Shown: positions 4,997-60,445, counted from the first letter of the stretch. The stretch is 64,000 bases of DNA from Alphaproteobacteria bacterium (GCA_965261735.1 OZ253470.1:288001-352000), one strand, 5' to 3'. Notes: generated by a model not told the origin, from the sequence alone. Numbers and translations are program-made.

Positions 4997-4999
4997 CGT

Positions 5000-8122: not shown

Positions 8123-8135
8123 TGCCTGCGCCTTC

Positions 8136-13573: not shown

Positions 13574-13585
13574 GGAATCGTCTCC

Positions 13586-28840: not shown

Positions 28841-32299
<3,459 letters not shown>

Positions 32300-32325
32300 G
32301 TGGCGTCTTCGTCCACTGATGGAAT

Positions 32326-34557
32326 TCATCTGCGAGCGAGAATTTGTTCGAACCACAGAATGGCCGCCTCGCCCTCTTTTCGCGTGACCTCGCCGACCGT
32401 TCGACTGTGGCGTATGCCGTTTCGAAGCTCCGCCAACTGGCCAAACTTCGCCGACAGCGTCTGCTTGTTAGCGAATCTCTTCTCAAAACTCTGCCAGAGA
32501 CTCTTGCTGAGTACCGTGTCGTGTAACTCGCGCAGATCACAGTACTCAAGGCGCCGGTTTAGTTGTTTGTATTGATCAAGTTCGATGTTTGCATTTTTCT
32601 TCGCGGCAGCCTGGATGCGTTCATCAGCTTTCTGAAGCACGTGCGGTGGCAGCCGCCCGGCATCGTCTTGGAGTGTTGCGACCACTTGTTCGCGGAGGGA
32701 GAGCTCAATGCCCTCGACCCGTTCGTCCAGCTCACGTAGCTGGGGCGACAAATCGATCCTTGCCTTGACCAACAGGTTCTCTATCGCCTCCAGCAAGGTA
32801 CGCTGCCGCTCGGCAATAAATGCCTCGTAGTCGTCGGAATTGAACGGCTTGCGCAACAGCACGGCCAAAGCCGCCGATGAGATGAAATGCGACTCGAGCA
32901 CGCTGCGCACGGCGCCCTCTCCGCTTTGCTCGATCAACTCCGGCAGATACTCGTTCGGAAGCCGGTCACCAATGACGCGCCGATTCGTGTCGGCAGTGAG
33001 CGGCGTGCGGTTCAGGATTGAGTGGATCAACCCACCGGTTCCAAGTTCTGTGGCCTTCGATGCCGGGATGATGTGATGATCGTCCAGATCGCCGTGTTGA
33101 GGCACATTGCCGCTCATCCAGTCCCGCGCGCCCTGGATGACGAGCAAATTGAAGATACCGTTGTATACCGACGTGCCGCGCTTCACTTCGCGGCGAAGGT
33201 CCAGGCTTCGGAAGCGCATTCCAAATTCCTGGATCAGCCCAGGCTCGCTCGCGTCCTCTTCCATCCAGGCTTTCAGGTCCAGGAAATCCCGGGCAGCGGT
33301 GGACTCCACGGAACCGGAGTAGCGGTTCAGGAATACCGAGGCCCAATACCAATGCCGGACCTTGCGTTGCGCCTCAAGTCTCTGGTTCGCGGGCAGTTCC
33401 CTGACGTGCGCTTGTATGGCAGAAAATGCCGGGATGATGGAGACGTAGGGGAGATAGTTCGAAGAAATCGCGCCGAATTCCTGAGGATGCCGCAATAGCT
33501 CGATGGCACGCTCTAGTGCATCGACGGCGTCGTTCCATCGATCCGTGAATGCCGTCGTGTTAGCAACCAGCACTTCCTTGCGGCGTGTTCCATCGGGATC
33601 CCGGACCGGTTTCTCCTGTTCGGGCAGAAGGAAGTAGAGATATTTCGGCGAGCAGTATCCCTGCCTGAGAATTGACATCACCTGCAAGATGTAAACGTTC
33701 ATCTTATTCGAATCGACGAACTCAAGACGAGGAGCGGCATTGCGCCACATCTGCTTGAGCTGCAAACCTTTGGGTTTGAGCAGTGCGTTGATGAGGTCGA
33801 AAGTGTCTAGCTGAATACCTTTGCTGTTGATCTGCGTGAAGATGTCGCAAACCTTATCGATTTCGAGTTGCTGGTCGAGTTCTATGTAGGAAATCTGATA
33901 CTGATCTATAAGAGTTCTGAGGTGCTCGCCAAACGCCAAGGCATTTTCGGCATGTAAAGTCGCTTGCTGGTGCTGGCTTTCCTTGCCTGCTTGCTTGGCC
34001 TGGGCTGCGGCTTCGCGCCAATGCTTTTCGTATCCTTGCACCCAGTTTGCCAGCGCCCAACCCTCTTTCCCGACAACGGCTAAAGGAAAGATATGCTCGG
34101 CATATTGTTGCTCGAGATTGGTGATGAGTTGTATCCAGCGCCTCGACCAATCGTACTCGAAGGAGTTGTCGTACTCCTCGGCCATAAAACGGTCGATTCT
34201 AACGAAGTAGTAATACCGATTTGCACGAGTGGGCAGCGCGATATCCGGTGCCAGAAATGCGTAGTGCATAGCCGTGAGTCGCTGCTGTCCGTCCAGAACT
34301 ATATATTCCGGCCTCTCGGAACCGTTGTAGCCGTAAAGTGGTTCGCAGGACAGGGCCGCGAAGTTCTCCTTCTTGCCAGTCCAGAGCAACAAGCTGCCAA
34401 TGTAATAGTCCAGAAAGATCGAGCGCATGAGATCGCGAACGTCCCATGGTTTCCACTCGAACTCGCGCTGAAAATCGGGAATGACGAAACGCCCTTCCCG
34501 CAAGCGCCCAATTAGCGTGTTCAGGCTGACGTGGTCGGGTTTCTGTGCATCTTTCAT
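32326..34557 (-). CDS. GmrSD-like DUF262 + HNH(DUF1524) protein with a C-terminal Swt1-like HEPN domain
   Basis: 'IPDFQREFEW', 'LDGQQRLT', 'FTQINSKG', 'DDHHIIP…LNRTPL'; C-terminal 'LRNGIRHS' Rx4H motif. Confidence 0.85.
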   Translation of the reverse strand: MKDAQKPDHVSLNTLIGRLREGRFVIPDFQREFEWKPWDVRDLMRSIFLDYYIGSLLLWTGKKENFAALSCEPLYGYNGSERPEYIVLDGQQRLTAMHYAFLAPDIALPTRANRYYYFVRIDRFMAEEYDNSFEYDWSRRWIQLITNLEQQYAEHIFPLAVVGKEGWALANWVQGYEKHWREAAAQAKQAGKESQHQQATLHAENALAFGEHLRTLIDQYQISYIELDQQLEIDKVCDIFTQINSKGIQLDTFDLINALLKPKGLQLKQMWRNAAPRLEFVDSNKMNVYILQVMSILRQGYCSPKYLYFLLPEQEKPVRDPDGTRRKEVLVANTTAFTDRWNDAVDALERAIELLRHPQEFGAISSNYLPYVSIIPAFSAIQAHVRELPANQRLEAQRKVRHWYWASVFLNRYSGSVESTAARDFLDLKAWMEEDASEPGLIQEFGMRFRSLDLRREVKRGTSVYNGIFNLLVIQGARDWMSGNVPQHGDLDDHHIIPASKATELGTGGLIHSILNRTPLTADTNRRVIGDRLPNEYLPELIEQSGEGAVRSVLESHFISSAALAVLLRKPFNSDDYEAFIAERQRTLLEAIENLLVKARIDLSPQLRELDERVEGIELSLREQVVATLQDDAGRLPPHVLQKADERIQAAAKKNANIELDQYKQLNRRLEYCDLRELHDTVLSKSLWQSFEKRFANKQTLSAKFGQLAELRNGIRHSRTVGEVTRKEGEAAILWFEQILARR

Positions 34558-34897: not shown

Positions 34898-35914
34898 TCA
34901 AGGCAGGGTATAGAGATTTCGACCAGCCAATCGCAAACAATAGCCGGTGACGTCGGGAGCGTCGCCACGCATCCGGATCCCATCTGTGTAATCGAGAGCA
35001 TAGCGAAGGGGTTGCGCATAATAAACTGGTACACGGGGTCGCTGAGCCGCTGCCGCGGCGAGAGAAAAAAGACACATCGCGAGCGACACTGTTTTCGGGC
35101 CGTAAGGTGCGATGGCCGCCGTTTCAAGACCATCATTGGTCATTTTGCAGAGAGCATCGAAAACCTGTGGGCAGTCATACATGTTAATGTGAACGTGATC
35201 AGGAGGGCCTATCCGTTCATTTTGCGTGAGATCGTCGATCTGTTTCACGAACATCCAATTCCTCCTATGGCCTGGAGGGCCCGGCGGAAACGGGAAGATG
35301 AGTTTAATCTTGTTTGAGTCCTGGTTCCTGAGCAGTGGAATTAGACCCAAAGGCTCGAACCCGATGCCGATAATAATGGACTCATGCTTACTGCGCCCGT
35401 TCTCCGCGAAGAATCCGGGGACCACGCGTAGCGGCGCCAAATTCTCTGAAAGCTTGTCGGAATAACCGGTAGCAGACGTATAAGTCACTATCACATCATC
35501 AAATCGAACGTCTTTAAGAACAGCTTGAATGATGGGAAAGAACCACATTTTTGGAAACGAGGTAATGTCGATGATAATCCTGCTCGAACCATTCTCTACC
35601 AGCCGACTAACAGGATCGACTTTATCATCAAGTCCTGCCAGAAGTTCCGCATCGCAAATTTCGTCTGGGCGATATCCGCACGCCTCAAGTGAATCGCGGC
35701 GCAATTGTAGCCGTTTTTTTTGTGCTGCGGGATCTAGTGGATCCGAATCGTGTATGGCGATGATTTTGACATCGCGAAGACGATCCCGACCGAGATAGTT
35801 CGCCAAAGCGACGCTACGAGCCTCGGTGCCACAACATGCTAGAAGTGACCACGGGTGGGCATTCAAGCGCTCAAGCAGCCAATCTATATGACCCCATGGG
35901 CGTAATACACTCAC
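34898..35914 (-). CDS. Hypothetical Rossmannoid (CARF/DUF6293-like) protein of the ORC/CDC6 module
   Basis: 'IIIDITSFPK', 'IGIGFEP', 'APYGPK', 'YYAQP..Y' motifs. GTG start overlaps the ATPase stop. Confidence 0.65.
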   Translation of the reverse strand: MSVLRPWGHIDWLLERLNAHPWSLLACCGTEARSVALANYLGRDRLRDVKIIAIHDSDPLDPAAQKKRLQLRRDSLEACGYRPDEICDAELLAGLDDKVDPVSRLVENGSSRIIIDITSFPKMWFFPIIQAVLKDVRFDDVIVTYTSATGYSDKLSENLAPLRVVPGFFAENGRSKHESIIIGIGFEPLGLIPLLRNQDSNKIKLIFPFPPGPPGHRRNWMFVKQIDDLTQNERIGPPDHVHINMYDCPQVFDALCKMTNDGLETAAIAPYGPKTVSLAMCLFSLAAAAAQRPRVPVYYAQPLRYALDYTDGIRMRGDAPDVTGYCLRLAGRNLYTLP

Positions 35915-37935
35915 AAGTCCTCCCCATCATCAAAGAGTGGCAAATTCATCTCCTCCGCGGGCTTAACCTGGGGGGTAAAGGAGTCTGGGAGCTGTAGTCC
36001 AGCTTCGTACATCCATGTTTCAACCTGCGTTGGGCGAATATATAACGGTTCCTTCAGCCTCTGGTAGTGCATCTTGAATTGCGGGCAGAGAACTGGATTC
36101 AGATAGATTTTCTGTCTTCTCCGGCGGTCCTTCTCTTTAGTGGTGTGCGGCCATACAACGAACGTACCGTAGTCACTCATCTCCTCGAGAAGATCCTTCA
36201 CATGGGGGAATCTCTCGAGTTCGTCTTCGGCAAGTGAAAAGCCGTTGTGTCCGGGATAACTCATTTTCCGGTCAGCATAGAGACCGCGCATAAGGACATT
36301 TCCTATATGCCTGACTAGTCGAAACCGATCTCCGCTCCTGCCAGTTTCCTGCGTGATTTTCTTGAGCCAATAGTCGCTTGCCTTAAAGATACCAATCGCC
36401 TGGACATCGGAGTCAATCTCAACCAGATCCATTTGTGACGTACTTTTTTTTCCAATTTGATTCTCCGTGTCCCAGATGAATTGGCAAATACTTAAGAAGG
36501 TCAGGATATTGCCGCCGCTGAGATCGATCAGTTCAGAGAATCCTGCCCATATTGGACGCTGCTGGCATCTACCGGCAATATGGACCAAGGCAAGCTCGAT
36601 CCGTTCCTTTATCCACCAAGGCTTCGCCTGCATTTCTGGGAGCATTGCCATGTTGAGATCGCGTGGAAAAGTCTTTTTCCCAATCTTGCGGGATCGGTTG
36701 AGTTGCTGCAGCACCCATGCCTCCAACAACCGTGCAGACAGCGGATCCACTTCACCATGTGCAAATATGCCCTCTCGAAACTCCTCTGGCCAATCCCGAT
36801 CCACTTTAACAGTTCTACGCCGATTGGTTCCCCCATATCTTATTGCTTTATCCTGAGGTAGCATTCCTTTACCGAACACGCGCTCTAGTAATTTTCTACC
36901 CGTCGCTTCCTTGGGTGCGAAGCCGGCATGTTTGAGTCGTCGTGCGAAAACGTCCTCCGCGAATCGCGGAAATACCCAAGTTTTTGGATTTTCATGGCGC
37001 CTCAGCAACGCATCAAGATCGACAAACTTGTAATCTCGTTCTTCTTCTAGCTTTGCATGGGCGCCAAAGATAAAACCATGATTACGCCACGCATGCCCGC
37101 GCGTCCCGATGCGATAAGAAATTGCCGGGTCCCGCCGAGCGAGTGCGCGATTTATTACCCGACGGTAGTCAGGACTATTGGTCTCATGTGGTGAAATGTT
37201 CGACAACTCTTCATACTGATCAATATGTATGAAGATGGCGACATCCCGTTCGATAATGTTTGATTCTTTGAGTAATCCTACTACTGTCGAGATAGGATCG
37301 CCGATATCAGTCTTCGACTCATGGATCTGCGCATCGAGTTGGCTGTCATTAATGTGCAGAAAACGGCGATAGGCGTTGAGTCGTTCGCGCATAAAGAGCT
37401 CGACATCGTTTAGCCTTTCACATCCTTTGAGAGTACCTTGAAAGATATCGGCGGTGGTCAGTGTGGAAATAAAGGCATTTTCACGCTCCTCCGACAGATC
37501 GATATGAATATCGGCTATGCGTGTGCCAAATTGATTGGATGACATCCGTATCGACTTAAACAGGTCGAGAAGGACGGTGTGGTTAACGAAATCGGCAAAA
37601 AATAAAGCCCTTTCATTTTCATCACTTGAGATGGAGCGATATCCAAAGTCAATCGCGTTACTATGAGCTAAATTGATGCCAGCACCAATAAACTTCCTGA
37701 TTTCCTTTCGTACCGGGAATTCAGTCATGGCCCGAGCATATTCGATCCGAACTTCGGGCCTTAGCAAGCTTAGCAGCATGCTTTTTCCACTACCCTGGAC
37801 CCCTTTGACGACAACGTTTCCAGGTAAGAATAGGGCTTCGGCATGATCAACGAGAAACGGACTGAATATATTTACAAACTCTCTGCTTGAGAGCTTGTCC
37901 CCGACATAGAGTTCGAAGAATGGATTGATACTCAT
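35911..37935 (-). CDS. ORC/CDC6-like (STAND-related) P-loop ATPase
   Basis: 'MSINPF', Walker A GVQGSGKS, Walker B 'IHIDQYEEL', 'LSGGNI', and a wHTH-like C-terminus ('IYLNPVLCP'). Confidence 0.8.
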   Translation of the reverse strand: MSINPFFELYVGDKLSSREFVNIFSPFLVDHAEALFLPGNVVVKGVQGSGKSMLLSLLRPEVRIEYARAMTEFPVRKEIRKFIGAGINLAHSNAIDFGYRSISSDENERALFFADFVNHTVLLDLFKSIRMSSNQFGTRIADIHIDLSEERENAFISTLTTADIFQGTLKGCERLNDVELFMRERLNAYRRFLHINDSQLDAQIHESKTDIGDPISTVVGLLKESNIIERDVAIFIHIDQYEELSNISPHETNSPDYRRVINRALARRDPAISYRIGTRGHAWRNHGFIFGAHAKLEEERDYKFVDLDALLRRHENPKTWVFPRFAEDVFARRLKHAGFAPKEATGRKLLERVFGKGMLPQDKAIRYGGTNRRRTVKVDRDWPEEFREGIFAHGEVDPLSARLLEAWVLQQLNRSRKIGKKTFPRDLNMAMLPEMQAKPWWIKERIELALVHIAGRCQQRPIWAGFSELIDLSGGNILTFLSICQFIWDTENQIGKKSTSQMDLVEIDSDVQAIGIFKASDYWLKKITQETGRSGDRFRLVRHIGNVLMRGLYADRKMSYPGHNGFSLAEDELERFPHVKDLLEEMSDYGTFVVWPHTTKEKDRRRRQKIYLNPVLCPQFKMHYQRLKEPLYIRPTQVETWMYEAGLQLPDSFTPQVKPAEEMNLPLFDDGEDL

Positions 37936-37936
37936 A

Positions 37937-38911
37937 TCAGGCCCTAGTAATTCGAGGAAAGAGAGGTTGCCACTCTTCGGTTTCGTCATAGATGATCGGA
38001 AGGCTGTTGTCGGGGCAGTTCGAATACAGTGCGACTACCGCTCCCGTTCCCTTATAGCCATGATAGCGTCGGCTTTCGACGTCCGATGCTGGTTCACCCA
38101 ATTTACCACTCACTCGGATTATGAAATCGCGTACGGTCTGGAACAGTGGCGGTTCATTGGGTTGGGGATCAGCCTTAATAAGCGTGCTGGGTGAAATTAA
38201 CATAACAGGTTCGTAGGATACATTCGCATGGCGCTCGGCTAAATTGCATCCAACCTGATGACCAGCCGGGCATACAACCAGCGGAAGAGTTAAAATCTCA
38301 ATATCAGCTGATATGTTGGCTGCATATTTGATTGCGCTTCTCATCTGAGTACCGCTGCCGACAAAATCTTCAAGAAGGACGATCCGCCGTATTTTATTAT
38401 CGACAACATATTGCGTGATTTTCTTGGGATCACCGAACTTTGTCAAAGACCGCCAGTCTGGTCGATGGCTTTTTCCCATCAACTTGTTCACCTTAAGAAA
38501 CGAGTTTATCCGCATCGAATCAGTGATTGGACAAAACCATGTTTCCGCAACTCCGTTATCCAAGGCGTGCATCGCTGCCGGATCCGCTATGTCGACCGCG
38601 ATCTGGTCAACTAACCAGCGAAGCACATGTCCATTGTACGCAGCGCGGCATAGGGATTCGAACTCCGACCGGCCAATAAAGAAAAAGTAGTTGAGAAGGA
38701 GGAACAGGGTCTGCTGATCTTGCTCTTCGTCGACATTGTGAATCCACCGATCAAGCCTGTCTTCGAACTGGTCAAATTGGGCTGGCTCATAGTCGTCGAA
38801 GACCTTGCGAGCTAGATATTGGATGGCGCTATGATCAAGGAATACTTCATCCTCGACATCCCAATCGCGTAATGCCCAGTCGCGCAACAACTTGCTCAGC
38901 CGATCGTTCAT
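37937..38911 (-). CDS. Phosphoribosyltransferase-like protein (PRTase-CE type)
   Basis: PRPP-binding loop 'IVLLEDFVGSGTQ' and C-terminal 'NCPDNSLPII…WQPLFPR'. Confidence 0.8.
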   Translation of the reverse strand: MNDRLSKLLRDWALRDWDVEDEVFLDHSAIQYLARKVFDDYEPAQFDQFEDRLDRWIHNVDEEQDQQTLFLLLNYFFFIGRSEFESLCRAAYNGHVLRWLVDQIAVDIADPAAMHALDNGVAETWFCPITDSMRINSFLKVNKLMGKSHRPDWRSLTKFGDPKKITQYVVDNKIRRIVLLEDFVGSGTQMRSAIKYAANISADIEILTLPLVVCPAGHQVGCNLAERHANVSYEPVMLISPSTLIKADPQPNEPPLFQTVRDFIIRVSGKLGEPASDVESRRYHGYKGTGAVVALYSNCPDNSLPIIYDETEEWQPLFPRITRA

Positions 38912-40113
38912 TCTTCCCCCACCAAAATAGCATCGCGGATGAAACCCGCTAGGCGGGCAGCCATTGGCGGAGGTACAGCATTTCCTATCATTCGAAACGC
39001 CTTCGAGCGATTGGCCCTAATGACGAAGTCATCTTGGAAACCCTGAATTCGGGCCGCTTCCCGCGGCGTAAGTCCCCGATCAAGGTGTGGGTGGATGAAT
39101 AGGCAGGGATCGCCGAAATGCGTATCAACTGTTGGCGAGATACCATCGATGGGTAATCGCCGAAACTTGCCATTATAGGTATGTTTCAGGTCGATATAAT
39201 TCTCAACGCGGCGAAGATACTGACACTCAATCAAGCGATTAATATCAGCATCGCAGCATCGTTCAAGATGATCGTTAACCACCGACGGTAAGACGGGATC
39301 TGCGTCGCCGAAATCCCGTCTGCGGTCCCGCCTCCTCAACCTAACGAGCGCTACTAGAACCTCGCGCTCCGAGCCCGTTACCGTTCCGAATACTTCTGGG
39401 ATATCCCAAGTGGGAACAGCAGCCGGACTGATACGAACATTGCATAGCTTCTGACCGGGAGAGATTCGACGAGCTATCAATTGCTCGCGAGAGCCGGCAG
39501 GCAACGGTATAGGATCGTGGCCTGACAAGCCGTCGACATTCGCGAGCGTGGCCGATAATGTTGGAGCGGAGCCTGTATCAAGTTCACAGCGGATCGCATC
39601 GCTTCCAAGCCAAGCAATAAGGAACAGACGCCTTCGGAGTTGCGGTACGCCACTAGAAGGACCGTCGGCAAAAATGCGAGAAACGGAATAACCTCCATTC
39701 TTTAGCATTGCCTCCACCTGTTCCCATCGCGTCCCGTGTCTTCCGGAAATCGCGGCGGGTACATTCTCCAGGACGAACACTCGCGGTCTGAGATCCAGAG
39801 CGATTATGCCAGCCCGTACGAGAAGATCGTTGCGGGGATCTTTCAGATCGCGTTTGCCCGCCGTAGAAAATCCTTGGCAGGGCGATCCAGCCAACAAGAC
39901 ATCCGGCCTGACCTGAGGCGTTTCGGTGGAAAGGTCACAGACAGATGCAACAGGAGCTACATTGTCGTTATAAGCCGTAACTACATATGAATCATTGTCA
40001 AAGGCACCGATCAGCCGAAAGCCCTCCTGTTCGAACCCGATGTCGAAGCCGCCGCATCCTGAGAACAGACTGGCTACGGTGCAGTCAGCCGAATTCAACT
40101 GGTCGTTTCCCAC
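38908..40113 (-). CDS. dcm: DNA (cytosine-5) methyltransferase
   Basis: Motifs I 'LFSGCGG', IV 'GSPCQGFS', VI 'ENV', VIII 'QLRRR', IX 'REAARIQGF', X 'IGNAVPP'. Confidence 0.92.
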   Translation of the reverse strand: MGNDQLNSADCTVASLFSGCGGFDIGFEQEGFRLIGAFDNDSYVVTAYNDNVAPVASVCDLSTETPQVRPDVLLAGSPCQGFSTAGKRDLKDPRNDLLVRAGIIALDLRPRVFVLENVPAAISGRHGTRWEQVEAMLKNGGYSVSRIFADGPSSGVPQLRRRLFLIAWLGSDAIRCELDTGSAPTLSATLANVDGLSGHDPIPLPAGSREQLIARRISPGQKLCNVRISPAAVPTWDIPEVFGTVTGSEREVLVALVRLRRRDRRRDFGDADPVLPSVVNDHLERCCDADINRLIECQYLRRVENYIDLKHTYNGKFRRLPIDGISPTVDTHFGDPCLFIHPHLDRGLTPREAARIQGFQDDFVIRANRSKAFRMIGNAVPPPMAARLAGFIRDAILVGEE

Positions 40114-40394
40114 GCGCCGATCATCCCCTTACCAGGGCAATCGAGTGAATTAGCGGGAAGAGATATTTTCAACTGTCTGTCCATAATACGGAACGAATAA
40201 GGGGCAATTATGCGATAGACCAAGCCTATCTTTCATTGCTTGTTGCTGATGGACGCACCCTAAGCCTATGACCGCACAATCGATGGCCCTATTGATTCAC
40301 CTCTGATCCCTGAACCGCAATGTACTTATGGATGATCGTGAGTTTGGTCGGGTAAGGACGGCTTGTCCTGTGTGATTCGCGACGCGTGCGACGT

Positions 40395-40455
40395 GCACAA
40401 GAGGATGATCGTGGCCCTGGCGCGCAAGTTGTTGATCGTGCCCGTGGAAGCTGTC
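40395..40455 (+). mobile_element. Tiny IS110-family transposase C-terminal relic
   Basis: 'KRMIVALARKLLIV' matches the IS110 C-terminal 'VALARKLL' motif. Confidence 0.4.
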
Positions 40456-40589
40456 GCGGAGTGCTAAAATAACGGAAGGGACTGAGTATCTGGCAAAACT
40501 ATGGATGCCCCATCTGCGAATCAATCCATTATTGTTGACAGCGCCTTGTAGACGCATTGGGCCAACTGCTTCGATTATCGGGTCGATTG

Positions 40590-40904
40590 TCATGTAGCTC
40601 CTTGCTCCTCGTACGGAACAAGATTGATGTCGCCTTCCCGCTTACGGGTCTGAGAGATGTCGTAGCTGTTCTGCATTCTCATCAGCGTATCCATGGATAT
40701 GCCGAACGCCTTCTCGATCCTGAGTGCCATTTCAGGCGAAAGACTTACGCGTTCGTTAAGCAGCGCGGACAGCGCGGGGCGCGTGATTCCCAATGCCCGC
40801 GCCCCATCGGTTACTGACAAGCCAAGGGCTTCTATGATCTCGCTCTTTACGAATCCACCGGGGTGGGCAGGACTTTTCATCCGGACGCCCTGTATCGCAC
40901 TCAT
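40590..40904 (-). CDS. higA: HigA antitoxin (XRE HTH)
   Basis: 'PAHPG…LGLSVTDGARALGITRPALSALLN…LSPEMALRIEKAFG…MQNSYD'. Confidence 0.93.
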   Translation of the reverse strand: MSAIQGVRMKSPAHPGGFVKSEIIEALGLSVTDGARALGITRPALSALLNERVSLSPEMALRIEKAFGISMDTLMRMQNSYDISQTRKREGDINLVPYEEQGAT

Positions 40905-40913
40905 GGCCGCCTC

Positions 40914-41198
40914 CTAGTGGTAGTCTTCGAAATCAAGATCGACAATTGACACCTGGTCAATCCGGAACGTGATCCGCCAGTTTCTTGTGACTGACAGACT
41001 CCAGCCGCCCTTACGATCGCCGGCAAGCTGATGCGCCGTCCAACTCGGAACCGTTCGCAATTCTTCTTGCCACTCCATGTCCTGAACAAAAGACAGGATG
41101 CGCCGCAGTTTCGGTACGACCGATGGCTGCAGAGCGGCGGTGTTATCGTTCTCTATGAAACGACGGAGCCCCTTGTGAACCACGTTTCGGATTTTCAC
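40914..41198 (-). CDS. higB: HigB/RelE toxin
   Basis: 'HKGLRRF…AHQLAGDRKGGWSLSVTRNWRITF…DFEDYH'; toxin lies upstream of antitoxin. Confidence 0.92.
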   Translation of the reverse strand: MKIRNVVHKGLRRFIENDNTAALQPSVVPKLRRILSFVQDMEWQEELRTVPSWTAHQLAGDRKGGWSLSVTRNWRITFRIDQVSIVDLDFEDYH

Positions 41199-55201: not shown

Positions 55202-57706
55202 TCAAGGCTCTACGAGGACAAAGTCCGAGCCACGGGAGTAGCCGACGGGGACTTGGCTGATCGGCTCCTGCACTAGCCTGTAGGCGAGAGTGGGCATCTC
55301 CAACGTCACATAGTCGATGATCTCCCGCACGGAGACCCGTCCGTCGCTTTCTCGGTCGCCCATGCCGTCGGCAGCCCCGTGGATACCTTCGATGACGAGG
55401 TACGTCAGTGCACCGTGAGGTACAACCTGAAGCTCTGTGGCGTTCTCATGAGCCCGGGATGCAGCGAGAATGTGGATGCCGCCGACGCGGGCAAGACGCC
55501 GCAACGATTTCTGCGCGACCGTGTCGTCGAGACCGCCGCCACGCGAATTCGATAAGGCGTCGAACGCCCCCACAACCGCACCGGAGCGACACGAATCGAG
55601 GATGAGGAACACGCGTTGAGCACGTGCGCGCGTCAGCAGCTGCATAAGTCGTTTGCTGGACAGCCCGAAGCGGCGAATCTGCGCATCATGGTCGGCCTGC
55701 GAGGTCGCCTCGCGCTTCCACTCGCTCGTGAACGGGAGAAGGTACCACTCCCATCCGCCTCTCTCGCGAAACGCATATCCGTGGCCCGAGAAGTAGATCA
55801 CAAGCACATCGTTGGGCGACATGGAGGCTTCGAGAATACGTTCCTCGATTGCGGGCTTATTGGCCGACGCGTCGAGCAGTGTCACGGTCTGGACATCGGC
55901 AAAGACGCTGCCTCCTCGTTCGCGCAACGCGGAGACCAAGGCCTGCGCGTCGTTGCGCGCGTAGAACAATTCCCACGCTCGACGGACATAGTCGTTGATT
56001 CCGATGGCGACCATGCGCAGGGCGGGACGGGAAGGAGCCGCAGAGACGACCACGCTGCGTACCGGCGACGGCGGTCCCTCAATGCCACCGTATCCGACAC
56101 CGAGAGCCCGGAATTCATTGCGCCCGGGCGCCAGGGGCAAGCGAAACCGGGCAATTCCATCGGCCTTATCCAGCCGACCGTCGGGGACGAGCTTGGCGTT
56201 GTGATAAAGACGGATCTCAGATAGCAGCTTCACCGGGTAGTCGGATTCCGCCCGCCGCACTGTCACCGATATCGTTTCGCCCGGAACCCGACTATCGGAG
56301 GGCATCGGATCAATCACGACCCGGGGCGGACGGAGATAGCCTTCGTCGGAAAGGTCGTCGACCTCTGCGGTGAGGTAGTCGGCCCCATCGGGCGCCCCAA
56401 GCTTCGCCAAAAGCCCCGGCTCGAAATAGGGCTCCGAGAACGCATCGACCGGCAGATCATAACGGATTCTGGTTGCGGTCTCGCCTGACCAAGAGAGCGC
56501 ATCGACTCCCGCCTGCGAGCCGTCGAAGCGCCCGGCACGGTCGAGCACCGTCCAGCCCTGGGCGGTGGAGACGAGCCAGCCGACCGCTGTTGGCTCCCGG
56601 CTCTCAAGCGAATGGATGGCTATGGTCCCATCGTCCTCACCGCCGAAGACCCATTGTCTCGAGGTATCGAGCAGGAGCGGCTGTGAATAGCCCGGGGAGA
56701 ACTCTACTGACGCCAAGCGTCGGATCTTCCCGGACACCGTCCAGACCTCAACCAAACCGCCAGAGCCACGTGCCGCAATGCGAGTCCCGTCTCCGTTCAT
56801 CGCAAGTGCCTCAACCGTGCCGCCAAGCCGCTTGGTCGGCACGGTGAAAAGCCTCCTCGGCGCATTCTCGTCTGCCAGCGTCCACGCGCACAGATGCCCG
56901 CGTGCATCACCGAGCACGACGCGCGTTCCGATTGGTGTGAACACCCCCGTAGTGATCGGAACACCGCGGGCACAGCCCTTGAGGCGACCCAGGATCCGCA
57001 CCCCCGAGCCGGTGATCCGCCCATGGATCAGAGTGCCAGCCGCCGCAGGATAGACCACAGTGGACCCGTCGGGCGAGAGGATGGGCTGCCCCTCGCCGGC
57101 AGCATCGGAGAGTGCGACCGGGCGAGCGCCTATCGCGGCGACATGCCAGCGGCCATCACGGGTGCGAAATGCCATTGCGCTACCATCGGCCGAGAGCGAG
57201 GGGGTGGAACTGGCATCGAAGCCCCGGATGGCGGCCCCGAGGGCGCGGTGTTCGCCGTCGAGGTACAGCGCGCTCGTCGACCCATCGCGGTGGACGACCA
57301 CAATCTCGGCTGAACGCCCGGCCCCTCGAACAACTCCGGCGACAATGTCGCCAAAGCGCCCGCTGACCCGCATGCCGCGTTCGAGATCCCACAGATGCGC
57401 GGCTCCATCGGCATGCACAGCAAGAATCAGGCGCCGGGTCTTATCGGCGGAAAAAGCGATTGTGGCACCTGCCCGGCGCTGGGGGTCGATAACGAGCGTG
57501 GGTCGAATCCGGAATCGTTGGGGCTCGCTTACGATCCGTTTCCATGAGTCCAAAGTAGGCCGCGCCATCCCTTGCACGACGCTCCGCATGGTCGCTTCAG
57601 CGGGGTCCGCGCAGACGAAGGTGAGCACGGCGCCGGTGAGCAGCAGGGCAAGCACGCGCCTCCAAGGAAACGGTCCGATGACAAGATTCACCGAGACTGA
57701 GCCCAT
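55202..57706 (-). CDS. Exported WD40/beta-propeller + caspase (peptidase C14) protein
   Basis: Signal-like N-terminus, propeller repeats, 'IGINDY', His 'YFSGHG', Cys 'ILDSCRSG', 'HGALT'. Confidence 0.88.
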   Translation of the reverse strand: MGSVSVNLVIGPFPWRRVLALLLTGAVLTFVCADPAEATMRSVVQGMARPTLDSWKRIVSEPQRFRIRPTLVIDPQRRAGATIAFSADKTRRLILAVHADGAAHLWDLERGMRVSGRFGDIVAGVVRGAGRSAEIVVVHRDGSTSALYLDGEHRALGAAIRGFDASSTPSLSADGSAMAFRTRDGRWHVAAIGARPVALSDAAGEGQPILSPDGSTVVYPAAAGTLIHGRITGSGVRILGRLKGCARGVPITTGVFTPIGTRVVLGDARGHLCAWTLADENAPRRLFTVPTKRLGGTVEALAMNGDGTRIAARGSGGLVEVWTVSGKIRRLASVEFSPGYSQPLLLDTSRQWVFGGEDDGTIAIHSLESREPTAVGWLVSTAQGWTVLDRAGRFDGSQAGVDALSWSGETATRIRYDLPVDAFSEPYFEPGLLAKLGAPDGADYLTAEVDDLSDEGYLRPPRVVIDPMPSDSRVPGETISVTVRRAESDYPVKLLSEIRLYHNAKLVPDGRLDKADGIARFRLPLAPGRNEFRALGVGYGGIEGPPSPVRSVVVSAAPSRPALRMVAIGINDYVRRAWELFYARNDAQALVSALRERGGSVFADVQTVTLLDASANKPAIEERILEASMSPNDVLVIYFSGHGYAFRERGGWEWYLLPFTSEWKREATSQADHDAQIRRFGLSSKRLMQLLTRARAQRVFLILDSCRSGAVVGAFDALSNSRGGGLDDTVAQKSLRRLARVGGIHILAASRAHENATELQVVPHGALTYLVIEGIHGAADGMGDRESDGRVSVREIIDYVTLEMPTLAYRLVQEPISQVPVGYSRGSDFVLVEP

Positions 57707-57716
57707 CGCCCCAGAC

Positions 57717-59753
57717 CTACTGCGCCGGCATCACGGTCTCGTAGACCAGAATCGCGACAGAGCGATGAGAGTATTCTTCACCAGCGCGAAGCGCCTCGGC
57801 AAGCTCGACGAGATAGGCCTTGGGGCGCTCGACGACAGAGAGATCCTTGTGCCGCGAAGTCAGCGCGTCGACCTGAGAGGTCTCATCAGACACGACGGCG
57901 ACCAGCATCCCGAGGCCGACCGGCGGGCTCACCCGCAAGCGGAAGGATTGGTCGGGACCACTCTGAGGCACATGTTTCGCCTCACCTGCGCGCACATGCA
58001 CCGGAATACCGCTCGCTAAACTGAACTCATTGGGAAATATCTGCACCATGTCGCCCGTCGCATCGATATCGAGCAGCACGAGCTGGCCATCGCGGGGACT
58101 TGTGACGACGACCTCAAGCTCGGAGCCGACCTGAAGGCGCGTGCCCTGCCTGATGCGAAGGTTCACGCCGTTTCCGGGCTCCGCAGCGGTGCCCGGTGCC
58201 GGTCCGACAAGGATGTCTTTGACCGCTTTCGCCTGCAGAGGGAGCGATACGGCGACGGGTAGAAACGCGGGAGCGTCCATCGCATTCGAGGCACCATGGA
58301 GCTGCGGGGTGAGCCCACGCGGGCAGCGATTCGTGTGCCGCGCGCAGTAAGCTTCAGACTCGCGGAGCACGTACTCGTGGAGTTCTGAACGGGTTACGAC
58401 CCCATCGTCGTCGGCATCGGCCTCAGCGTCCCTCATTCCGGAAAGGATCCTGCGGGTGAACACGCTCAACGGACGGCCGCGCAGCTCCTCGTCCACGAGC
58501 GCCTTCTGATGAGCCGCGACTGCAGTCCACACTGTTACATCGGCCGTGCGAAGCTGCGGGTCCTTCGCCGAGAGGAACGCCTCGGGGACCGAAGTCGAGA
58601 CGGCTTGGCTCGCACCTACGGCTCCGAGGCGTAGCGGCCCGCCGTCAGGGCGGCGCGGGCTCTTGACATAGCGCCACCCCTCGCCGACTACCGAGATCCG
58701 GTCACTGGTGCCGGAGTGACAGGCATCGATGACCACGTTGACGCGGCGTCCGGAGAGCCGATTGAGCAATGTCGCCATCTCGTCATCCGTGATCATGCCC
58801 GCAATGGTCTCATCATCGCGCACGACCACGTCAACGGGCACGAGAGTCTCGTCGAAACGATCGGGCTCGTCGCCGTTCGTATCGGGCTGCTGGAAACCAT
58901 GGCCGCTGAAGAATAGAAAGATCTCATCGCCCGGCCTCGTCCCTTCAACAAGCCATTCCTCGACTTCACGAAGAATATTGGCCCTGGTCGCCTCGGCATC
59001 GAGCAGGAGTCGGACGTCGCCGGTGTCAAACCCGAGATCGTCGGTGATAAACGCGTGCATCGCCTTCACGTCGTTGACCGGGCCCACCAAAGGCGAGACA
59101 TGTTGATAGGCATCGATGCCTATCAACAATGCCTTGCGCGCTGAGTGCAGGGGTAAGGACGGCACACCGCCTCCGGCGGTCGGCCCCAGTAGCACGACCT
59201 CGACGCGGCGATTGCGCGCATCCTCACCCGGCACGCCGGGCAGCGAAAATTCCTCTCCCAAGCCAACCTCGACGAGCCTGTGCGCGGCGATGTGGTCCGC
59301 GACCAGACGGCGTTTGACGGCGCTAGCGCGCCTCAGCGAGAGTGCCCGGTTGTAGGCTCGATCACCTACACTGTCGGTGTGGCCCTGCACCGCGAAGACG
59401 AGGGAGCCCAGCGCGTCAAGCTTGAGCGCCTTCGCAAGCTCCGTGACCTGTTCCTGTGCACGAGGGGTCAGCCGATCGGAGTCGAACTCGAACTGAATGG
59501 CAGGCAGCGCGATTCGCCGCGAGACCGGATGCTCGGCAGGCGATGGCTGAGAAGCGCCAGGATCTTCACTGGCGGGCTCGTACTCGACCTTTCTCTTCCT
59601 CCCGGATGGGAGCGGAGTCGCTGGCGAGAGCTGGCTGGCGATCGCCTCAGCGGGAACGATGGGAGAAAATTCGGATGCGGTACTGATGCTCGATGAGCAC
59701 ACTCCAAACATGGCGAACACCAGTAGAAATCGCAGGAACGAGGTGCCGGTCAT
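57717..59753 (-). CDS. Exported OmpA-like + metacaspase + DUF4384 fusion protein
   Basis: OmpA 'GHTDSVG…YNRALSLRRA…NRRVEV'; 'KALLIGID', 'FSGHG', 'DETLVPVD', 'DACHSG'; C-terminal 'MVQIFPN'. Alternative start at 59852. Confidence 0.88.
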   Translation of the reverse strand: MTGTSFLRFLLVFAMFGVCSSSISTASEFSPIVPAEAIASQLSPATPLPSGRKRKVEYEPASEDPGASQPSPAEHPVSRRIALPAIQFEFDSDRLTPRAQEQVTELAKALKLDALGSLVFAVQGHTDSVGDRAYNRALSLRRASAVKRRLVADHIAAHRLVEVGLGEEFSLPGVPGEDARNRRVEVVLLGPTAGGGVPSLPLHSARKALLIGIDAYQHVSPLVGPVNDVKAMHAFITDDLGFDTGDVRLLLDAEATRANILREVEEWLVEGTRPGDEIFLFFSGHGFQQPDTNGDEPDRFDETLVPVDVVVRDDETIAGMITDDEMATLLNRLSGRRVNVVIDACHSGTSDRISVVGEGWRYVKSPRRPDGGPLRLGAVGASQAVSTSVPEAFLSAKDPQLRTADVTVWTAVAAHQKALVDEELRGRPLSVFTRRILSGMRDAEADADDDGVVTRSELHEYVLRESEAYCARHTNRCPRGLTPQLHGASNAMDAPAFLPVAVSLPLQAKAVKDILVGPAPGTAAEPGNGVNLRIRQGTRLQVGSELEVVVTSPRDGQLVLLDIDATGDMVQIFPNEFSLASGIPVHVRAGEAKHVPQSGPDQSFRLRVSPPVGLGMLVAVVSDETSQVDALTSRHKDLSVVERPKAYLVELAEALRAGEEYSHRSVAILVYETVMPAQ

Positions 59754-59848
59754 GACGATGGACTCATTGGCGAGAGGTGGCGAAGGGAGGCACTGCCTGC
59801 TACGGGAGCCGCGCGACAAGGGGAGGAAGATGCTCGGCCGAACACGCA

Positions 59849-60445
59849 TCAATGCGCCACCACCGAGGTCTGGAGTGTCGCCACACTCCAGTCGTCGGGA
59901 TTTATCCGTCCGAGTGCATCGTTCAGGCGACGGTTATACTGCGCGGGACTCAAATCGAGCGTGGCGATACCGCCAGCCTCTTTCAATAAATCTGCCCCCG
60001 AGAGGAACTCCAGGGGGCTGCGGGTCGCGACCAAATAGAAGGCTTCGTCTCCTGCGGGTGGCTTGACGACGATCTGAACGCCGCTCTCGGACAGGGGAAA
60101 GTCGATGATCTCCGCAGGGCGCATTGCGAGGTTGTGGATGAACCTCGTCACCTTGCATGACGTGCTCACGTGGAAGAGGCTGAGGAAAGAGGGGGAGCTG
60201 ACCCGCATCTGAAGACGAAGCGGCTCGCCCACGTTGAATCGGCCATCGGGCACTGCCCATGCTTCGACCACGAACTTGCGACCCTCGTATATGGTCGGCA
60301 ATTCGCACTGTGATGCGTATGCAGGCTTGGCGAGAAGCACTGCAACCGACAAAGACGCGACAACTAGAAGCAAGAGGCTACGAGGATGGATGGCGCTCGA
60401 CATGACGTCAGTCTCCGTTGCAGGTGCTTCACTGCGCAAAGCCAT
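59849..60445 (-). CDS. Exported DUF4384-like protein
   Basis: Signal peptide; 'VGEPLRL…VKPPAGDEAFYLVATRSP'. Confidence 0.75.
   Translation of the reverse strand: MALRSEAPATETDVMSSAIHPRSLLLLVVASLSVAVLLAKPAYASQCELPTIYEGRKFVVEAWAVPDGRFNVGEPLRLQMRVSSPSFLSLFHVSTSCKVTRFIHNLAMRPAEIIDFPLSESGVQIVVKPPAGDEAFYLVATRSPLEFLSGADLLKEAGGIATLDLSPAQYNRRLNDALGRINPDDWSVATLQTSVVAH

What the first reader, a model, noticed from the sequence alone, without database searches (positions are those of the whole stretch)
34898..40113. Candidate undescribed defence system: C5-methyltransferase + PRTase + ORC/CDC6-like ATPase + CARF-like Rossmann protein
Seen: four intact, tightly coupled genes (4-bp overlaps or a 1-bp gap). 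They are clearly lower in GC than the ICE backbone and sit in a defence island between type III R-M/GmrSD and HigBA/integrase. No restriction endonuclease or vsr accompanies the MTase. Established: PRTase-type effectors and ORC/CDC6/STAND-like NTPases occur in predicted nucleotide-targeting conflict systems, and CARF folds bind nucleotide signals. Inference: the MTase marks self or is a guarded decoy, the ATPase senses infection, and the PRTase depletes nucleotides or makes a signal read by the Rossmann protein. I know of no experimentally characterised system with this four-part composition.
Basis: partly seen in the sequence, partly recalled or inferred. Interest (0 to 1): 0.82.

Follow-up and report, generated by a model that had tools for sequence, protein, structure and literature searches.

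The report
Methylase-linked PRTase, ATPase, CARF cassette
This is an intact copy of a widespread but experimentally untested four-gene bacterial cassette, probably an immune system, that couples a DNA cytosine methylase to an ORC-like ATPase, a nucleotide-sensing double-CARF protein and a nucleotide-metabolising enzyme, with no DNA-cutting enzyme.

Summary
Four intact, co-directional genes lie at 34898-40113 on the minus strand (4-bp overlap, 1-bp gap, 4-bp overlap): a C5 DNA methylase, PRTase-CE (PF24390), an ORC-CDC6-like ATPase (PF24389) and a tandem-CARF protein (PADLOC CARF6, 1.6e-84). They sit in a low-GC island between a type III R-M/GmrSD block and HigBA/integrase.

The methylase is not incidental. 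Of 61 species genomes found with the ATPase, 43 have all four genes intact in the same order. Searching in the other direction, from the methylase target-recognition domain, I examined 80 metagenome loci. PRTase followed in 62 of 63 assessable loci, the ATPase in 53 of 54, and CARF in 43 of 44.

Sister cassettes swap the effector (HD-CE, Metallophos) and the methylase class. A complex model supports ATPase-CARF binding (0.69; best control 0.00). This genome has no Cas10 or CD-NTase.

It is not undescribed. The component families are catalogued, and this scan met the cassette class in at least eight other genomes. I found no experimental test of it.

Best reading: a methylation-linked, nuclease-free defence that depletes PRPP or nucleotides. 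I rate it a new member of a known, uncharacterised kind.

The parts
38908..40113 (-). C5 cytosine DNA methyltransferase (401 aa), first gene of the cassette. Its target-recognition domain (TRD, about residues 176-310) is unusually conserved.
   Evidence: PF00145 3.5e-52 and TIGR00675 2.2e-41. The best solved relative is M.HaeIII, over the catalytic core only. Motifs I, IV (PCQ), VI (ENV), VIII, IX and X are conserved in 53 sequences. TRD length is 131-137 aa, and its central block is as conserved as the catalytic core. This TRD clade is followed by the other three genes in 62 of 63, 53 of 54 and 43 of 44 assessable metagenome loci.
37937..38911 (-). PRTase-CE phosphoribosyltransferase-like protein (324 aa); predicted effector.
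   Evidence: PF24390 1e-31 and PADLOC retron type III-A PRTase models 1.8e-24. E181, D182, G187 and Q189 are invariant in 51 sequences. HD-CE or Metallophos occupies the same slot in sister cassettes. PRTase-CE is fused to AAA+ NTPases in 9 long proteins.
35911..37935 (-). ORC/Cdc6-like AAA+ ATPase (674 aa) with a C-terminal winged-helix-like region; predicted switch or hub.
   Evidence: PF24389 9e-43. The AlphaFold model has pLDDT 89.9. VIA-align hits: Cdc6 7jgr_G Z 12.3 (rmsd 3.6, 242 aa), PAB2304 2qen_A Z 12.0 (rmsd 4.7, 328 aa), MuB Z 11.6, BrxC 9zdx_A Z 10.2 (rmsd 6.5, 326 aa). The Walker A/B residues G45, G48, G50, K51, D239, Q240 and E242 are invariant in 55 sequences.
34898..35914 (-). 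Stand-alone tandem-CARF protein (338 aa); predicted nucleotide sensor bound to the ATPase.
   Evidence: PADLOC CARF6 PDLC01923 1.6e-84; no Pfam hit. The model has pLDDT 92.3 and pTM 0.93. Can1 6sce_A gives Z 14.5 (rmsd 3.0, 225 aa, both halves). Csm6, Can2, Csa3 and Card1 give Z 10.6-13.7 on residues about 172-303. The complex model with the ATPase scores ipSAE 0.69 against a best control of 0.00.
40114..40296 (-). 183-bp intergenic region upstream of the methylase; possible operon promoter.
   Evidence: There is one sigma-70-like match (40236..40207, 9 of 12). The scan as a whole is not above shuffles (10 found against 6.1 +/- 2.9), so this is weak.

Best explanation
What it is. The locus is an intact, horizontally acquired copy of a conserved four-gene conflict cassette: a dedicated C5 DNA methylase, a PRTase-CE effector, an ORC/Cdc6-like AAA+ ATPase and a stand-alone tandem-CARF sensor.

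Shown. The four genes form one evolutionary unit in which the methylase is an obligate, co-diverging member. The effector slot and the methylase class are modular in sister cassettes. The CARF protein is a Can1-like pseudo-dimer.

Supported by modelling only. The CARF protein docks on the ATPase next to the Walker B region and the insert that follows strand 2.

Inferred mechanism. The methylase marks the host chromosome as self, as in R-M or BREX. The ATPase-CARF complex is the sensor and switch. When it meets invading (unmodified) DNA and/or a nucleotide ligand bound by the CARF, the ATPase changes its assembly state and turns on the PRTase. The PRTase then consumes PRPP or disturbs nucleotide pools and stops replication of the invader, possibly at the cost of host growth. 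No DNA is cut.
For: Conservation. 61 species loci were found with the ATPase. All four genes are intact and in the same order and strand in 43. Most of the remaining loci are cut by contig ends or carry broken genes.

Reverse test. From the methylase TRD, the best 80 of 185 metagenome hits were examined. PRTase follows in 62 of 63 assessable loci, the ATPase in 53 of 54, and CARF in 43 of 44.

Co-divergence. The methylase co-diverges with the ATPase (r = 0.78 over 42 loci plus the window; Mantel 0 of 999 permutations reach it).

A real DNA 5mC methylase. Vsr lies directly after the cassette in 3 loci.

The effector role of the PRTase:
- HD-CE or Metallophos sits in the same slot in 4 of 7 sister loci.
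- PRTase-CE is fused to AAA+ NTPases in 9 proteins.
- The retron-Eco11 PRTase lowers PRPP on activation (PMC12746101, abstract and section 30).
- ShosT PRTase disrupts purine metabolism (PMC11961720, abstract in the listing).

The methylation-as-self-mark reading:
- Methylases of four classes occur in the cassette family.
- The ATPase model resembles BrxC (Z 10.2) and Cdc6 (Z 12.3).
- In decayed copies the PRTase is the gene most often broken, while the methylase stays intact. One search flagged PRTase in 8 loci (1 at a contig end), the ATPase in 3 and CARF in 3. The methylase was flagged only in L013, at a contig start; L058's methylase is in two pieces at an edge.

ATPase-CARF binding. ipSAE is 0.69 against a best of 3 controls of 0.00. 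The mark was reached by 58 of 80 solved complexes and 2 of 110 mismatched pairs. The runs agree in at least 81% of contacts, and partner pLDDT is at least 82. My own alignments were used, so these counts hold only roughly.

Horizontal acquisition. The region is low in GC, and the ATPase was found in 0 of 40 relatives.
Against: - No experiment on this cassette was found, so a defence role rests on context and homology only.
- The methylase TRD is strongly conserved in length and sequence across about a dozen phyla. That is atypical for R-M-type self/non-self marks, which usually diversify in specificity.
- No module that reads methylation state was identified in the ATPase or CARF models.
- No methylase was seen among the neighbours examined in 3 of 7 sister loci (L077, which is cut just after CARF; L078; L079). 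The ATPase-CARF-effector core may therefore work without its own methylase.
- The CARF ligand is unknown. This genome has no SMODS, Csm1 or Cmr2 match.
- The gene breaks counted in MAGs may partly be assembly errors, and I ran no statistical test on them.
Confidence: 0.5

Rival explanations
1. Methylome-derived danger signal. The methylase exists to label host DNA. When a phage degrades the chromosome, 5-methyl-dC-containing (oligo)nucleotides are released and bind the tandem CARF. The CARF then switches the ATPase and the PRTase on. This would be the cytosine analogue of the PUA-Cal-HAD system.
For: - PUA-Calcineurin-CE-HAD is reported to be triggered by m6-dAMP released from Dam-methylated host DNA (PMC12871103, abstract and passages).
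- This cassette has a nucleotide sensor but no signal synthase, and the genome has no Cas10 or CD-NTase.
- A fixed, non-diversifying TRD fits a label whose sequence context does not matter.
- Sister cassettes in which no methylase was seen could use host methylation in trans.
Against: - The CARF signature residues (R33, D/E116, S/T118, K/R/H122, G185, K274) are kept in 7 of 7 sister CARFs, whether the linked methylase is C5, N6_N4, N6, D12 or not seen. That argues for a common ligand rather than differently methylated bases. It is weak evidence from only 7 sequences.
- Under this model, loss of the methylase would be harmless. The methylase should then decay as often as the other genes, but it is the gene least often broken.
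Confidence: 0.2
2. Selfish addiction module. The cassette works like a post-segregationally killing R-M system that stabilises the island. Loss of methylation after loss of the cassette unleashes the long-lived ATPase-PRTase pair. Defence would be secondary or absent.
For: - The cassette sits on a low-GC integrase-bearing island beside a HigBA toxin-antitoxin pair.
- The methylase is retained when the PRTase is broken.
- Distribution is patchy, as expected of horizontal transfer: 0 of 40 relatives, 1 of 401 in the phylum sample for this clade.
Against: - The ATPase was not found on any of 72,556 plasmid or 50,697 phage records by tblastn, nor in IMG/VR contigs.
- The flanks are not conserved between loci; the best flanking family occurs in 8 of 61. 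The cassette therefore moves as a stand-alone unit into varied contexts, as defence genes do.
- The need for a nucleotide sensor is not explained.
Confidence: 0.1
3. PRTase as signal synthase. On activation by the ATPase, the PRTase makes a phosphoribosylated nucleotide from PRPP. The tandem CARF reads it, and the output is executed by the ATPase or an unlinked effector.
For: - The cassette holds a CARF with no other candidate synthase, and the genome has no cyclase.
- PRTases do make N-ribosyl nucleotides (general knowledge of the superfamily; PMC5512222 passages).
Against: - HD-CE and Metallophos phosphoesterases occupy the same slot in sister cassettes with the same ATPase and CARF. Hydrolases cannot synthesise such a signal.
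- Characterised relatives act as toxic effectors.
- No other effector is conserved in the flanks.
Confidence: 0.08
4. Chance juxtaposition. An orphan dcm happens to lie next to an unrelated three-gene system.
For: None beyond the general frequency of orphan methylases in islands.
Against: The association is reciprocal and near-exclusive, the genes co-diverge, and the junction is a 4-bp overlap.
Confidence: 0.02

Closest known systems
Catalogued but untested cassette class: [DNA methylase] + PRTase-CE / HD-CE / calcineurin-like effector + ORC-CDC6-like ATPase (PF24389) + CARF6. The families are in Pfam and PADLOC. 'CE' (conflict effector) is attributed to Nicastro, Burroughs, Iyer and Aravind 2023, NAR 51:11479. 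CARF6 is, from my recall, from Makarova et al. 2020, NAR 48:8828. I could read neither paper.
   Same: All three family models hit above threshold. The operon order and tight coupling match. The effector slot is modular and a methylase is linked in sister loci. The class was also recorded by this scan in other genomes.
   Different: This clade has a dedicated C5 methylase as first gene, with a conserved TRD. It scores low against the Pfam ATPase model (147 bits, against 214-425 bits for seven of the eight sister hits and 99.5 bits for the eighth, L072), so it is a divergent branch. Whether the literature describes the four-gene unit including the methylase could not be checked.
BREX type 1 (PglX methylase, BrxC ORC/Cdc6-like ATPase, PglZ phosphatase-superfamily enzyme)
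   Same: It pairs a methylase with an ORC/Cdc6-clade ATPase carrying a winged helix and a non-nuclease enzyme, with no restriction endonuclease. The ATPase model aligns to BrxC at Z 10.2 (rmsd 6.5, 326 aa). [quoted passage not shown]
   Different: There is no PglZ, BrxA, BrxB or BrxL. The methylase is C5 rather than N6. The ATPase has 674 aa, not about 1200. A CARF sensor and a PRTase are present.
Retron type III-A (e.g. Retron-Eco11) PRTase effector; ShosT
   Same: The PRTase hits the PADLOC retron III-A PRTase models (1.8e-24) and shares Pfam PRTase-CE. The Retron-Eco11 effector lowers PRPP and causes abortive infection.
   Different: There is no reverse transcriptase or ncRNA. The effector is controlled by an ATPase-CARF pair rather than msDNA. 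A methylase is present.
Type III CRISPR ancillary CARF effectors (Can1, Can2/Card1, Csm6) and CBASS SAVED receptors
   Same: The tandem-CARF fold matches: Can1 Z 14.5 over both halves, other CARFs Z 9-13.7, SAVED Z 7-8.6. The [DN]x[ST]xxx[RK]-type motif is present (motif definition recalled; residues).
   Different: The CARF is stand-alone, with no fused effector. No fused forms were found among longer proteins, which is weak evidence. No Cas10 or CD-NTase is present in the cassette or the genome.
PUA-Calcineurin-CE-HAD system
   Same: It is a nucleotide-pool-targeting 'CE' effector system whose trigger depends on DNA methylation.
   Different: It has a different sensor (PUA, not CARF) and no ATPase, and it uses host Dam rather than its own methylase.

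Membership tests
PRTase-CE / ORC-CDC6-like / CARF6 cassette class | ORC-CDC6-like ATPase (Pfam PF24389) above the gathering score | tested here: met
   147.3 bits against a cut-off of 27, covering 4-567 of 571 profile positions. The fold is ORC/Cdc6-like.
PRTase-CE / ORC-CDC6-like / CARF6 cassette class | A 'conflict effector' gene (PRTase-CE, HD-CE or calcineurin-like) immediately upstream of the ATPase | tested here: met
   PF24390 scores 111.1 bits against a cut-off of 27, with a 1-bp gap to the ATPase. The PRPP loop is intact.
PRTase-CE / ORC-CDC6-like / CARF6 cassette class | Stand-alone CARF6-type tandem-CARF gene immediately downstream of the ATPase | tested here: met
   PDLC01923 1.6e-84. 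Can1-like tandem-CARF model. 4-bp overlap with the ATPase gene.
PRTase-CE / ORC-CDC6-like / CARF6 cassette class | Linked DNA methylase | tested here: met
   A C5 methylase is the first gene and is conserved in both directions.
BREX | PglZ alkaline-phosphatase-superfamily protein and PglX-type N6 methylase | tested here: not met
   None of the four proteins has a PglZ hit, and the methylase is PF00145 C5.
BREX | BrxC-type ORC/Cdc6 ATPase | tested here: inconclusive
   There is structural similarity only (Z 10.2, rmsd 6.5, 326 aa). No PADLOC BrxC model hit.
Classical type II restriction-modification | A restriction endonuclease paired with the methylase | tested here: not met
   No nuclease family was found in the cassette by Pfam, PADLOC or NCBIfam. 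No further conserved flanking gene exists.
Type III CRISPR / CBASS signalling | A cyclic-oligonucleotide synthase (Cas10 or CD-NTase) supplying the CARF/SAVED ligand | tested here: not met
   SMODS PF18144, Csm1 TIGR02578 and Cmr2 TIGR02577 give 0 matches in the 98%-complete single-contig genome. None is in the cassette.
Retron type III-A | Reverse transcriptase and ncRNA next to the PRTase | tested here: not met
   The neighbours of the PRTase are the methylase and the ATPase. No RT family was seen in the ORFs scanned at 25-45 kb. RNA families were not searched.
CARF superfamily | Rossmann-like CARF fold with a conserved motif after the core strand; binding of a cyclic or linear oligonucleotide | tested here: inconclusive
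   Fold and motif are met. Ligand binding cannot be tested with these tools.

The most novel reading that the evidence does not exclude
This would be a nuclease-free analogue of restriction-modification. A dedicated, sequence-invariant C5 methylase supplies the self mark or the danger signal itself, namely 5mC nucleotides freed from degraded host DNA. An ORC-like ATPase locked by a stand-alone tandem CARF reads it and unleashes a PRPP-consuming enzyme. The CARF would then sense an endogenous, non-cyclase-made nucleotide, a signalling logic not yet shown for any CARF.
Probability: 0.3. Interest if true: 0.8.

Novelty: new member of a known kind. Interest (0 to 1): 0.55.

Why it matters
If it works as inferred, this cassette is a third way of using DNA methylation in immunity. 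R-M cuts DNA and BREX blocks replication by an unknown route. Here the output would be collapse of PRPP or nucleotide pools, gated by an ORC-like ATPase and a CARF sensor with no dedicated signal synthase.

It occurs in roughly a dozen phylum-level groups, going by the record titles and my own assignment of those names to phyla. It is compact (5.2 kb) and has clear catalytic residues to mutate, so the open questions can be tested directly. Those questions are what the CARF binds, whether methylation protects or signals, and what the PRTase consumes.

- a reciprocal test showing that the methylase clade is dedicated to the cassette;
- the conserved TRD;
- the decay pattern, in which the effector breaks first and the methylase last;
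- a controlled complex model that places the CARF on the ATPase.

Tried and rejected
Literature.
- Nine answered full-text searches found no paper that describes or tests a methylase + PRTase + ORC/Cdc6-like ATPase + CARF system.
- The three most relevant papers are not held: Makarova 2020 (PMC7498327), Burroughs 2015 (PMC4678834, id recalled) and Nicastro 2023 (PMC10681802). A computational description may exist there. Supplements were not consulted.
- These papers do not describe the cassette in the passages I searched: PMC4012209, PMC5512222, PMC7824862, PMC10853773, PMC10542128, PMC12669027, PMC12839542, bioRxiv 270033 and bioRxiv 2025.09.30.679545.

Sequence and fold searches.
- Foldseek against the PDB with the CARF model gave poor global alignments: tandem USP and KCC C-terminal domains at rmsd 17-20. 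Only Can1 reached TMq 0.51. VIA-align resolved this.
- The PRTase against PDB sequences gave nothing as a single sequence. As a profile it gave only TT1426 at E 0.86.
- NCBIfam gave nothing for the ATPase or CARF, and only a sub-threshold DS32_1 tail match for the PRTase.
- The search for fused forms of the CARF found none, which is weak evidence.
- The AAA+ part of the PRTase-CE fusion protein P0127 is not detectably related to this ATPase by hhalign (probability 0.2%).

Distribution.
- The ATPase is not found in plasmid, phage or IMG/VR collections.
- There are no tRNA genes in the window, so no tRNA attachment site was identified.
- The methylase search in 400 genomes of the phylum found only the window's own copy. 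This shows that the clade is rare there; it was not a test of linkage.

Not attempted or not significant.
- The promoter and terminator scans are not above shuffles.
- PRTase-ATPase and PRTase-CARF binding were not modelled, because only one complex job was allowed.

Full report
THE OBSERVATION

The window carries four co-directional minus-strand ORFs at the stated coordinates:
- a 401-aa protein at 38908-40113;
- a 324-aa protein at 37937-38911;
- a 674-aa protein at 35911-37935, counted from the ATG that orthologues support (the longest ORF begins at 37989);
- a 338-aa protein at 34898-35914.

The junctions are a 4-bp overlap, a 1-bp gap (TGA-t-ATG) and a 4-bp overlap. GC falls to 0.46-0.54 across the cassette, against 0.66-0.72 in the first 25 kb.

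The upstream 70%-GC part holds a T2SSE/VirB11-type ATPase, TcpQ and a sub-threshold TrbI match. A conjugative or pilus backbone is therefore plausible but not established.

WHAT THE FOUR PROTEINS ARE

Gene 1 is a C5 cytosine DNA methylase (PF00145 3.5e-52; M.HaeIII is the best solved relative over the catalytic core). Its motifs FSGCGG, PCQ, ENV, QxRxR and GNAVP are intact.

Gene 2 is PRTase-CE (PF24390, 1e-31). It also hits the PADLOC models for retron type III-A PRTase effectors (1.8e-24). Its PRPP loop VLLEDFVGSG is conserved, with E181 and D182 invariant in 51 sequences.

Gene 3 is the ORC-CDC6-like family PF24389 (9e-43).
- An AlphaFold model (pLDDT 89.9) aligns best to Cdc6 (Z 12.3, rmsd 3.6, 242 aa), the archaeal ATPases PAB2304 and SSO1545 (Z 12.0 and 11.4 over about 325 aa), MuB, TnsC and BrxC (Z 10.2, rmsd 6.5, 326 aa).
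- Strand-helix-strand elements at about 560-645 look like a winged helix. That reading is my own interpretation of the secondary structure.
- The Walker A and B residues are invariant in 55 sequences.

Gene 4 has no Pfam hit but matches PADLOC CARF6 at 1.6e-84.
- Its model (pLDDT 92.3, pTM 0.93) is a tandem CARF.
- Can1 aligns over both halves (Z 14.5, rmsd 3.0, 225 aa). Csm6, Can2, Csa3, Cam1 and Card1 align to the C-terminal half (Z 10.6-13.7). SAVED domains align at Z 7-8.6.
- The N-terminal half carries D116-I-T-S-F-P-K122 and the C-terminal half G272-P-K274. D116, K122, G272 and K274 are invariant in 52 sequences.

No nuclease family is present in any of the four proteins.

IS THE METHYLASE PART OF THE SYSTEM?

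Forward test. An alignment of ATPase homologues retrieved 61 loci from one-genome-per-species contigs. Scoring six-frame ORFs with the four window proteins showed the same order and strand throughout: MT, PRT, ATPase, CARF.
- All four genes are intact in 43 of 61 loci.
- The methylase is intact in 52 loci, off or at a contig end in 5, and flagged broken in one (L013, at a contig start).
- The methylase was not detected in three loci:
  - L016 is a truncated remnant that also lacks the PRTase and has a histidine kinase upstream.
  - L063 is a distant relative.
  - L054 has an N6_N4-type methylase in exactly the same position, with a 4-bp overlap.

Breadth. The record titles name Alpha-, Beta- and Gammaproteobacteria, Bryobacterales, Terracidiphilus, Vicinamibacteria, Planctomycetes, Verrucomicrobia, Thermoleophilaceae, Solirubrobacteraceae, Nitrospirae, Nitrospinaceae, Desulfobacterales-like MAGs, Limnocylindrales, Fimbriimonadales, Saccharibacteria, Paceibacterota and Binatia. 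Grouping these into about a dozen phyla is my own knowledge.

Reverse test. I aligned only the methylase target-recognition region and scanned metagenome contigs. 185 stretches were confirmed and the best 80 were kept. Downstream of the methylase, PRTase was present in 62 of 63 loci with enough sequence, the ATPase in 53 of 54, and CARF in 43 of 44. The exceptions are L158 and L113. This methylase clade is therefore essentially found only as the first gene of the cassette.

Co-divergence. Pairwise identities of the methylase track those of the ATPase (r = 0.78; 0 of 999 permutations reach it). Those of PRTase, ATPase and CARF track each other at r = 0.85-0.92.

No fifth gene. The commonest flanking families are Vsr (8 of 61 loci; directly after CARF in L042, L044 and L046) and ThyX (7 of 61). 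The three cassette-adjacent Vsr genes support real 5mC formation in DNA.

THE WIDER FAMILY IS MODULAR

PF24389 was found in 8 other genomes of a 400-genome sample of the phylum. I examined seven of these neighbourhoods:

| Locus | Gene order |
|---|---|
| L073 | N6_N4 methylase, PRTase-CE, ATPase, CARF |
| L074 | PRTase, ATPase, CARF, N6 methylase |
| L075 | Dcm-type methylase, HD-CE (PF24391), ATPase, CARF |
| L076 | D12/Dam-type methylase, Metallophos + wHTH, ATPase, 313-aa protein |
| L077 | Metallophos, ATPase, CARF; no methylase among the neighbours scanned (contig ends just after CARF) |
| L078 | Metallophos, ATPase, CARF; no methylase among the neighbours scanned |
| L079 | PfkB-like kinase, PRTase, ATPase, unknown 429-aa protein |

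The ATPase is therefore constant and CARF nearly so (my CARF model hit 5 of the 7 loci). The effector slot is interchangeable between chemically different nucleotide-directed enzymes, and the methylase class varies.

PRTase-CE also occurs fused to the C-terminus of AAA_16/ATPase_2/AAA_22-type NTPases. Nine proteins of 722-1476 aa were found and five were scanned. This supports its role as an NTPase-controlled effector, although hhalign does not relate that ATPase to this one.

These results agree with notes from earlier runs of this scan on other genomes. I used those notes as leads and re-tested them here.

HOW THE PARTS FIT

A complex model of the ATPase (residues 1-650) with the CARF protein supports binding.
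- The median ipSAE of three runs is 0.69, and the best of 3 controls is 0.00.
- In calibration the mark was reached by 58 of 80 solved complexes and 2 of 110 mismatched pairs.
- The runs agree in at least 81% of contacts, and partner pLDDT is at least 82.
- My own alignments were used, so the calibration counts hold only roughly.

The predicted interface uses ATPase residues 88-101, 183-196, 240-250 and 528-538. That is beside the Walker B motif and the insert that follows strand 2. In ORC/Cdc6-type ATPases this insert is involved in DNA contact and assembly; that point is my knowledge, and the insert is mentioned for BrxD in PMC12839542. This is a model, not a measurement.

The genome (98% complete, one contig) has no SMODS, Csm1 or Cmr2 match. 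The CARF therefore has no canonical cyclic-oligonucleotide supplier.

MECHANISM

My best reading (confidence 0.5) is a methylation-linked, nuclease-free defence.
- The methylase marks self DNA.
- The ATPase-CARF complex is the sensor and switch.
- The PRTase is the effector and consumes PRPP or disturbs nucleotide pools. This is what is reported for the Retron-Eco11 PRTase (PRPP down about 50% on activation; PMC12746101, abstract and section 30) and for ShosT (abstract in the listing).

The steps that are shown are the gene unit, the domain identities, the modularity and the intact catalytic residues. The ATPase-CARF contact is supported by modelling. Self-marking, the trigger, the ligand and the PRTase substrate are all inferred.

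The decay pattern is consistent with a toxic effector held in check by methylation. One search flagged the PRTase as broken in 8 loci (one at a contig end), the ATPase in 3 and CARF in 3. The methylase was flagged only at contig edges (L013; L058 in two pieces). In four loci the PRTase is the only broken gene. MAG errors may contribute, and I ran no statistical test.

Three results count against this reading:
- The TRD is almost invariant in length (131-137 aa), and its central block is as conserved as the catalytic core. That is unlike diversifying R-M specificities.
- No methylation-reading module was seen.
- Some sister cassettes may lack a methylase.

MAIN RIVAL

The main rival (0.2) is a methylome-derived danger signal, by analogy with PUA-Calcineurin-CE-HAD, which senses m6-dAMP released from degraded Dam-methylated host DNA (PMC12871103). 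It would explain the fixed TRD and the synthase-less CARF.

Against it, the CARF signature residues are the same in 7 of 7 sister CARFs whatever the methylase class (small sample). The methylase is also the gene least often lost.

The other rivals are an addiction-module reading (0.1), a PRTase-as-signal-synthase reading (0.08) and chance juxtaposition (0.02, refuted). They are set out in the Rival explanations section.

NOVELTY

No PADLOC system matches as a whole, and the ATPase has no PADLOC model. Nine answered literature searches found no experimental or descriptive paper in the held library.

The component families are nevertheless curated. 'CE' means conflict effector and is attributed to Nicastro et al. 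2023. That paper, Makarova et al. 2020 and Burroughs et al. 2015 are not held. This scan had also recorded the class before on other DNA.

I therefore file it as a new member of a known, catalogued but experimentally uncharacterised kind. It is not an undescribed system.

This clade was not found on plasmid, phage or IMG/VR records, nor in 40 relatives.

Noticed in passing
L005 8551-9483, L006 11088-12062, L007 4766-5938, L010 4811-5692, L012 4806-5693, L026 4705-5637: A ThyX (Thy1, flavin-dependent thymidylate synthase) gene lies directly beside the cassette in 7 of 61 loci. All named examples are alphaproteobacterial, and the gene lies on either side and on either strand. It could be an insertion hotspot or a functional link to pyrimidine metabolism. 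Two of the seven were confirmed by Pfam.
   Followed up: partly
L042 11018-11467, L044 11019-11528, L046 11122-11568: A Vsr mismatch endonuclease gene lies immediately after the CARF gene in three loci. Other Vsr genes in the 8-locus family accompany a second, unrelated Dcm. The window's genome has its only Vsr match about 1.6 Mb away from the window (L161).
   Followed up: partly
L018 10014-13425: The CARF gene of this Bryobacterales copy is split by an IS66-family transposase (11433-12623).
   Followed up: partly
P0125-P0133 (no window coordinates): These are long proteins (722-1476 aa). Each has an unknown N-terminal region of about 400 aa, an AAA_16/ATPase_2/AAA_22 NTPase and a C-terminal PRTase-CE domain. 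They look like single-chain sensor-effector versions that use the same effector.
   Followed up: partly
window 55202-57706 and 57717-59852 (minus strand): Two adjacent large proteins carry caspase (Peptidase_C14) domains. One also has OmpA and DUF4384 domains. They may form another conflict or cell-death module in the same window.
   Followed up: no
window 40297-40593 (minus strand): A 98-aa ORF with no Pfam hit overlaps the end of the HigA-like HTH gene by 4 bp (HigB 40914-41198, HTH 40590-40904). It may be a third gene of that toxin-antitoxin operon.
   Followed up: no
window 31202-32356 (minus strand): A 384-aa ORF lies between the type III-like methylase and GmrSD. Its only hit is a sub-threshold Sipho_Gp157 match (E 1.5e-4). 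It overlaps the methylase ORF, so the gene call is uncertain.
   Followed up: no
L079 (G320) 2860-13059: This variant cassette reads PfkB-like kinase, PRTase, ORC-CDC6-like ATPase and an unknown 429-aa protein in the CARF position. It lies beside a TraG/VirD4-type coupling protein, so it probably sits on a conjugative element.
   Followed up: partly
L074 (G107) 4095-5471: An HD + HD_assoc (dGTPase-like) gene lies upstream of a PRTase-ATPase-CARF-N6 methylase cassette, giving two nucleotide-directed enzymes in one neighbourhood.
   Followed up: no
window 1-24000: The 70%-GC part upstream of the island holds a T2SSE/VirB11-type ATPase (14353-16173), a TcpQ-domain protein (12678-13850) and a weak TrbI-like protein (9072-10208). 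Five of the eight large ORFs scanned there had no Pfam hit. There is no tRNA gene in the whole window.
   Followed up: partly
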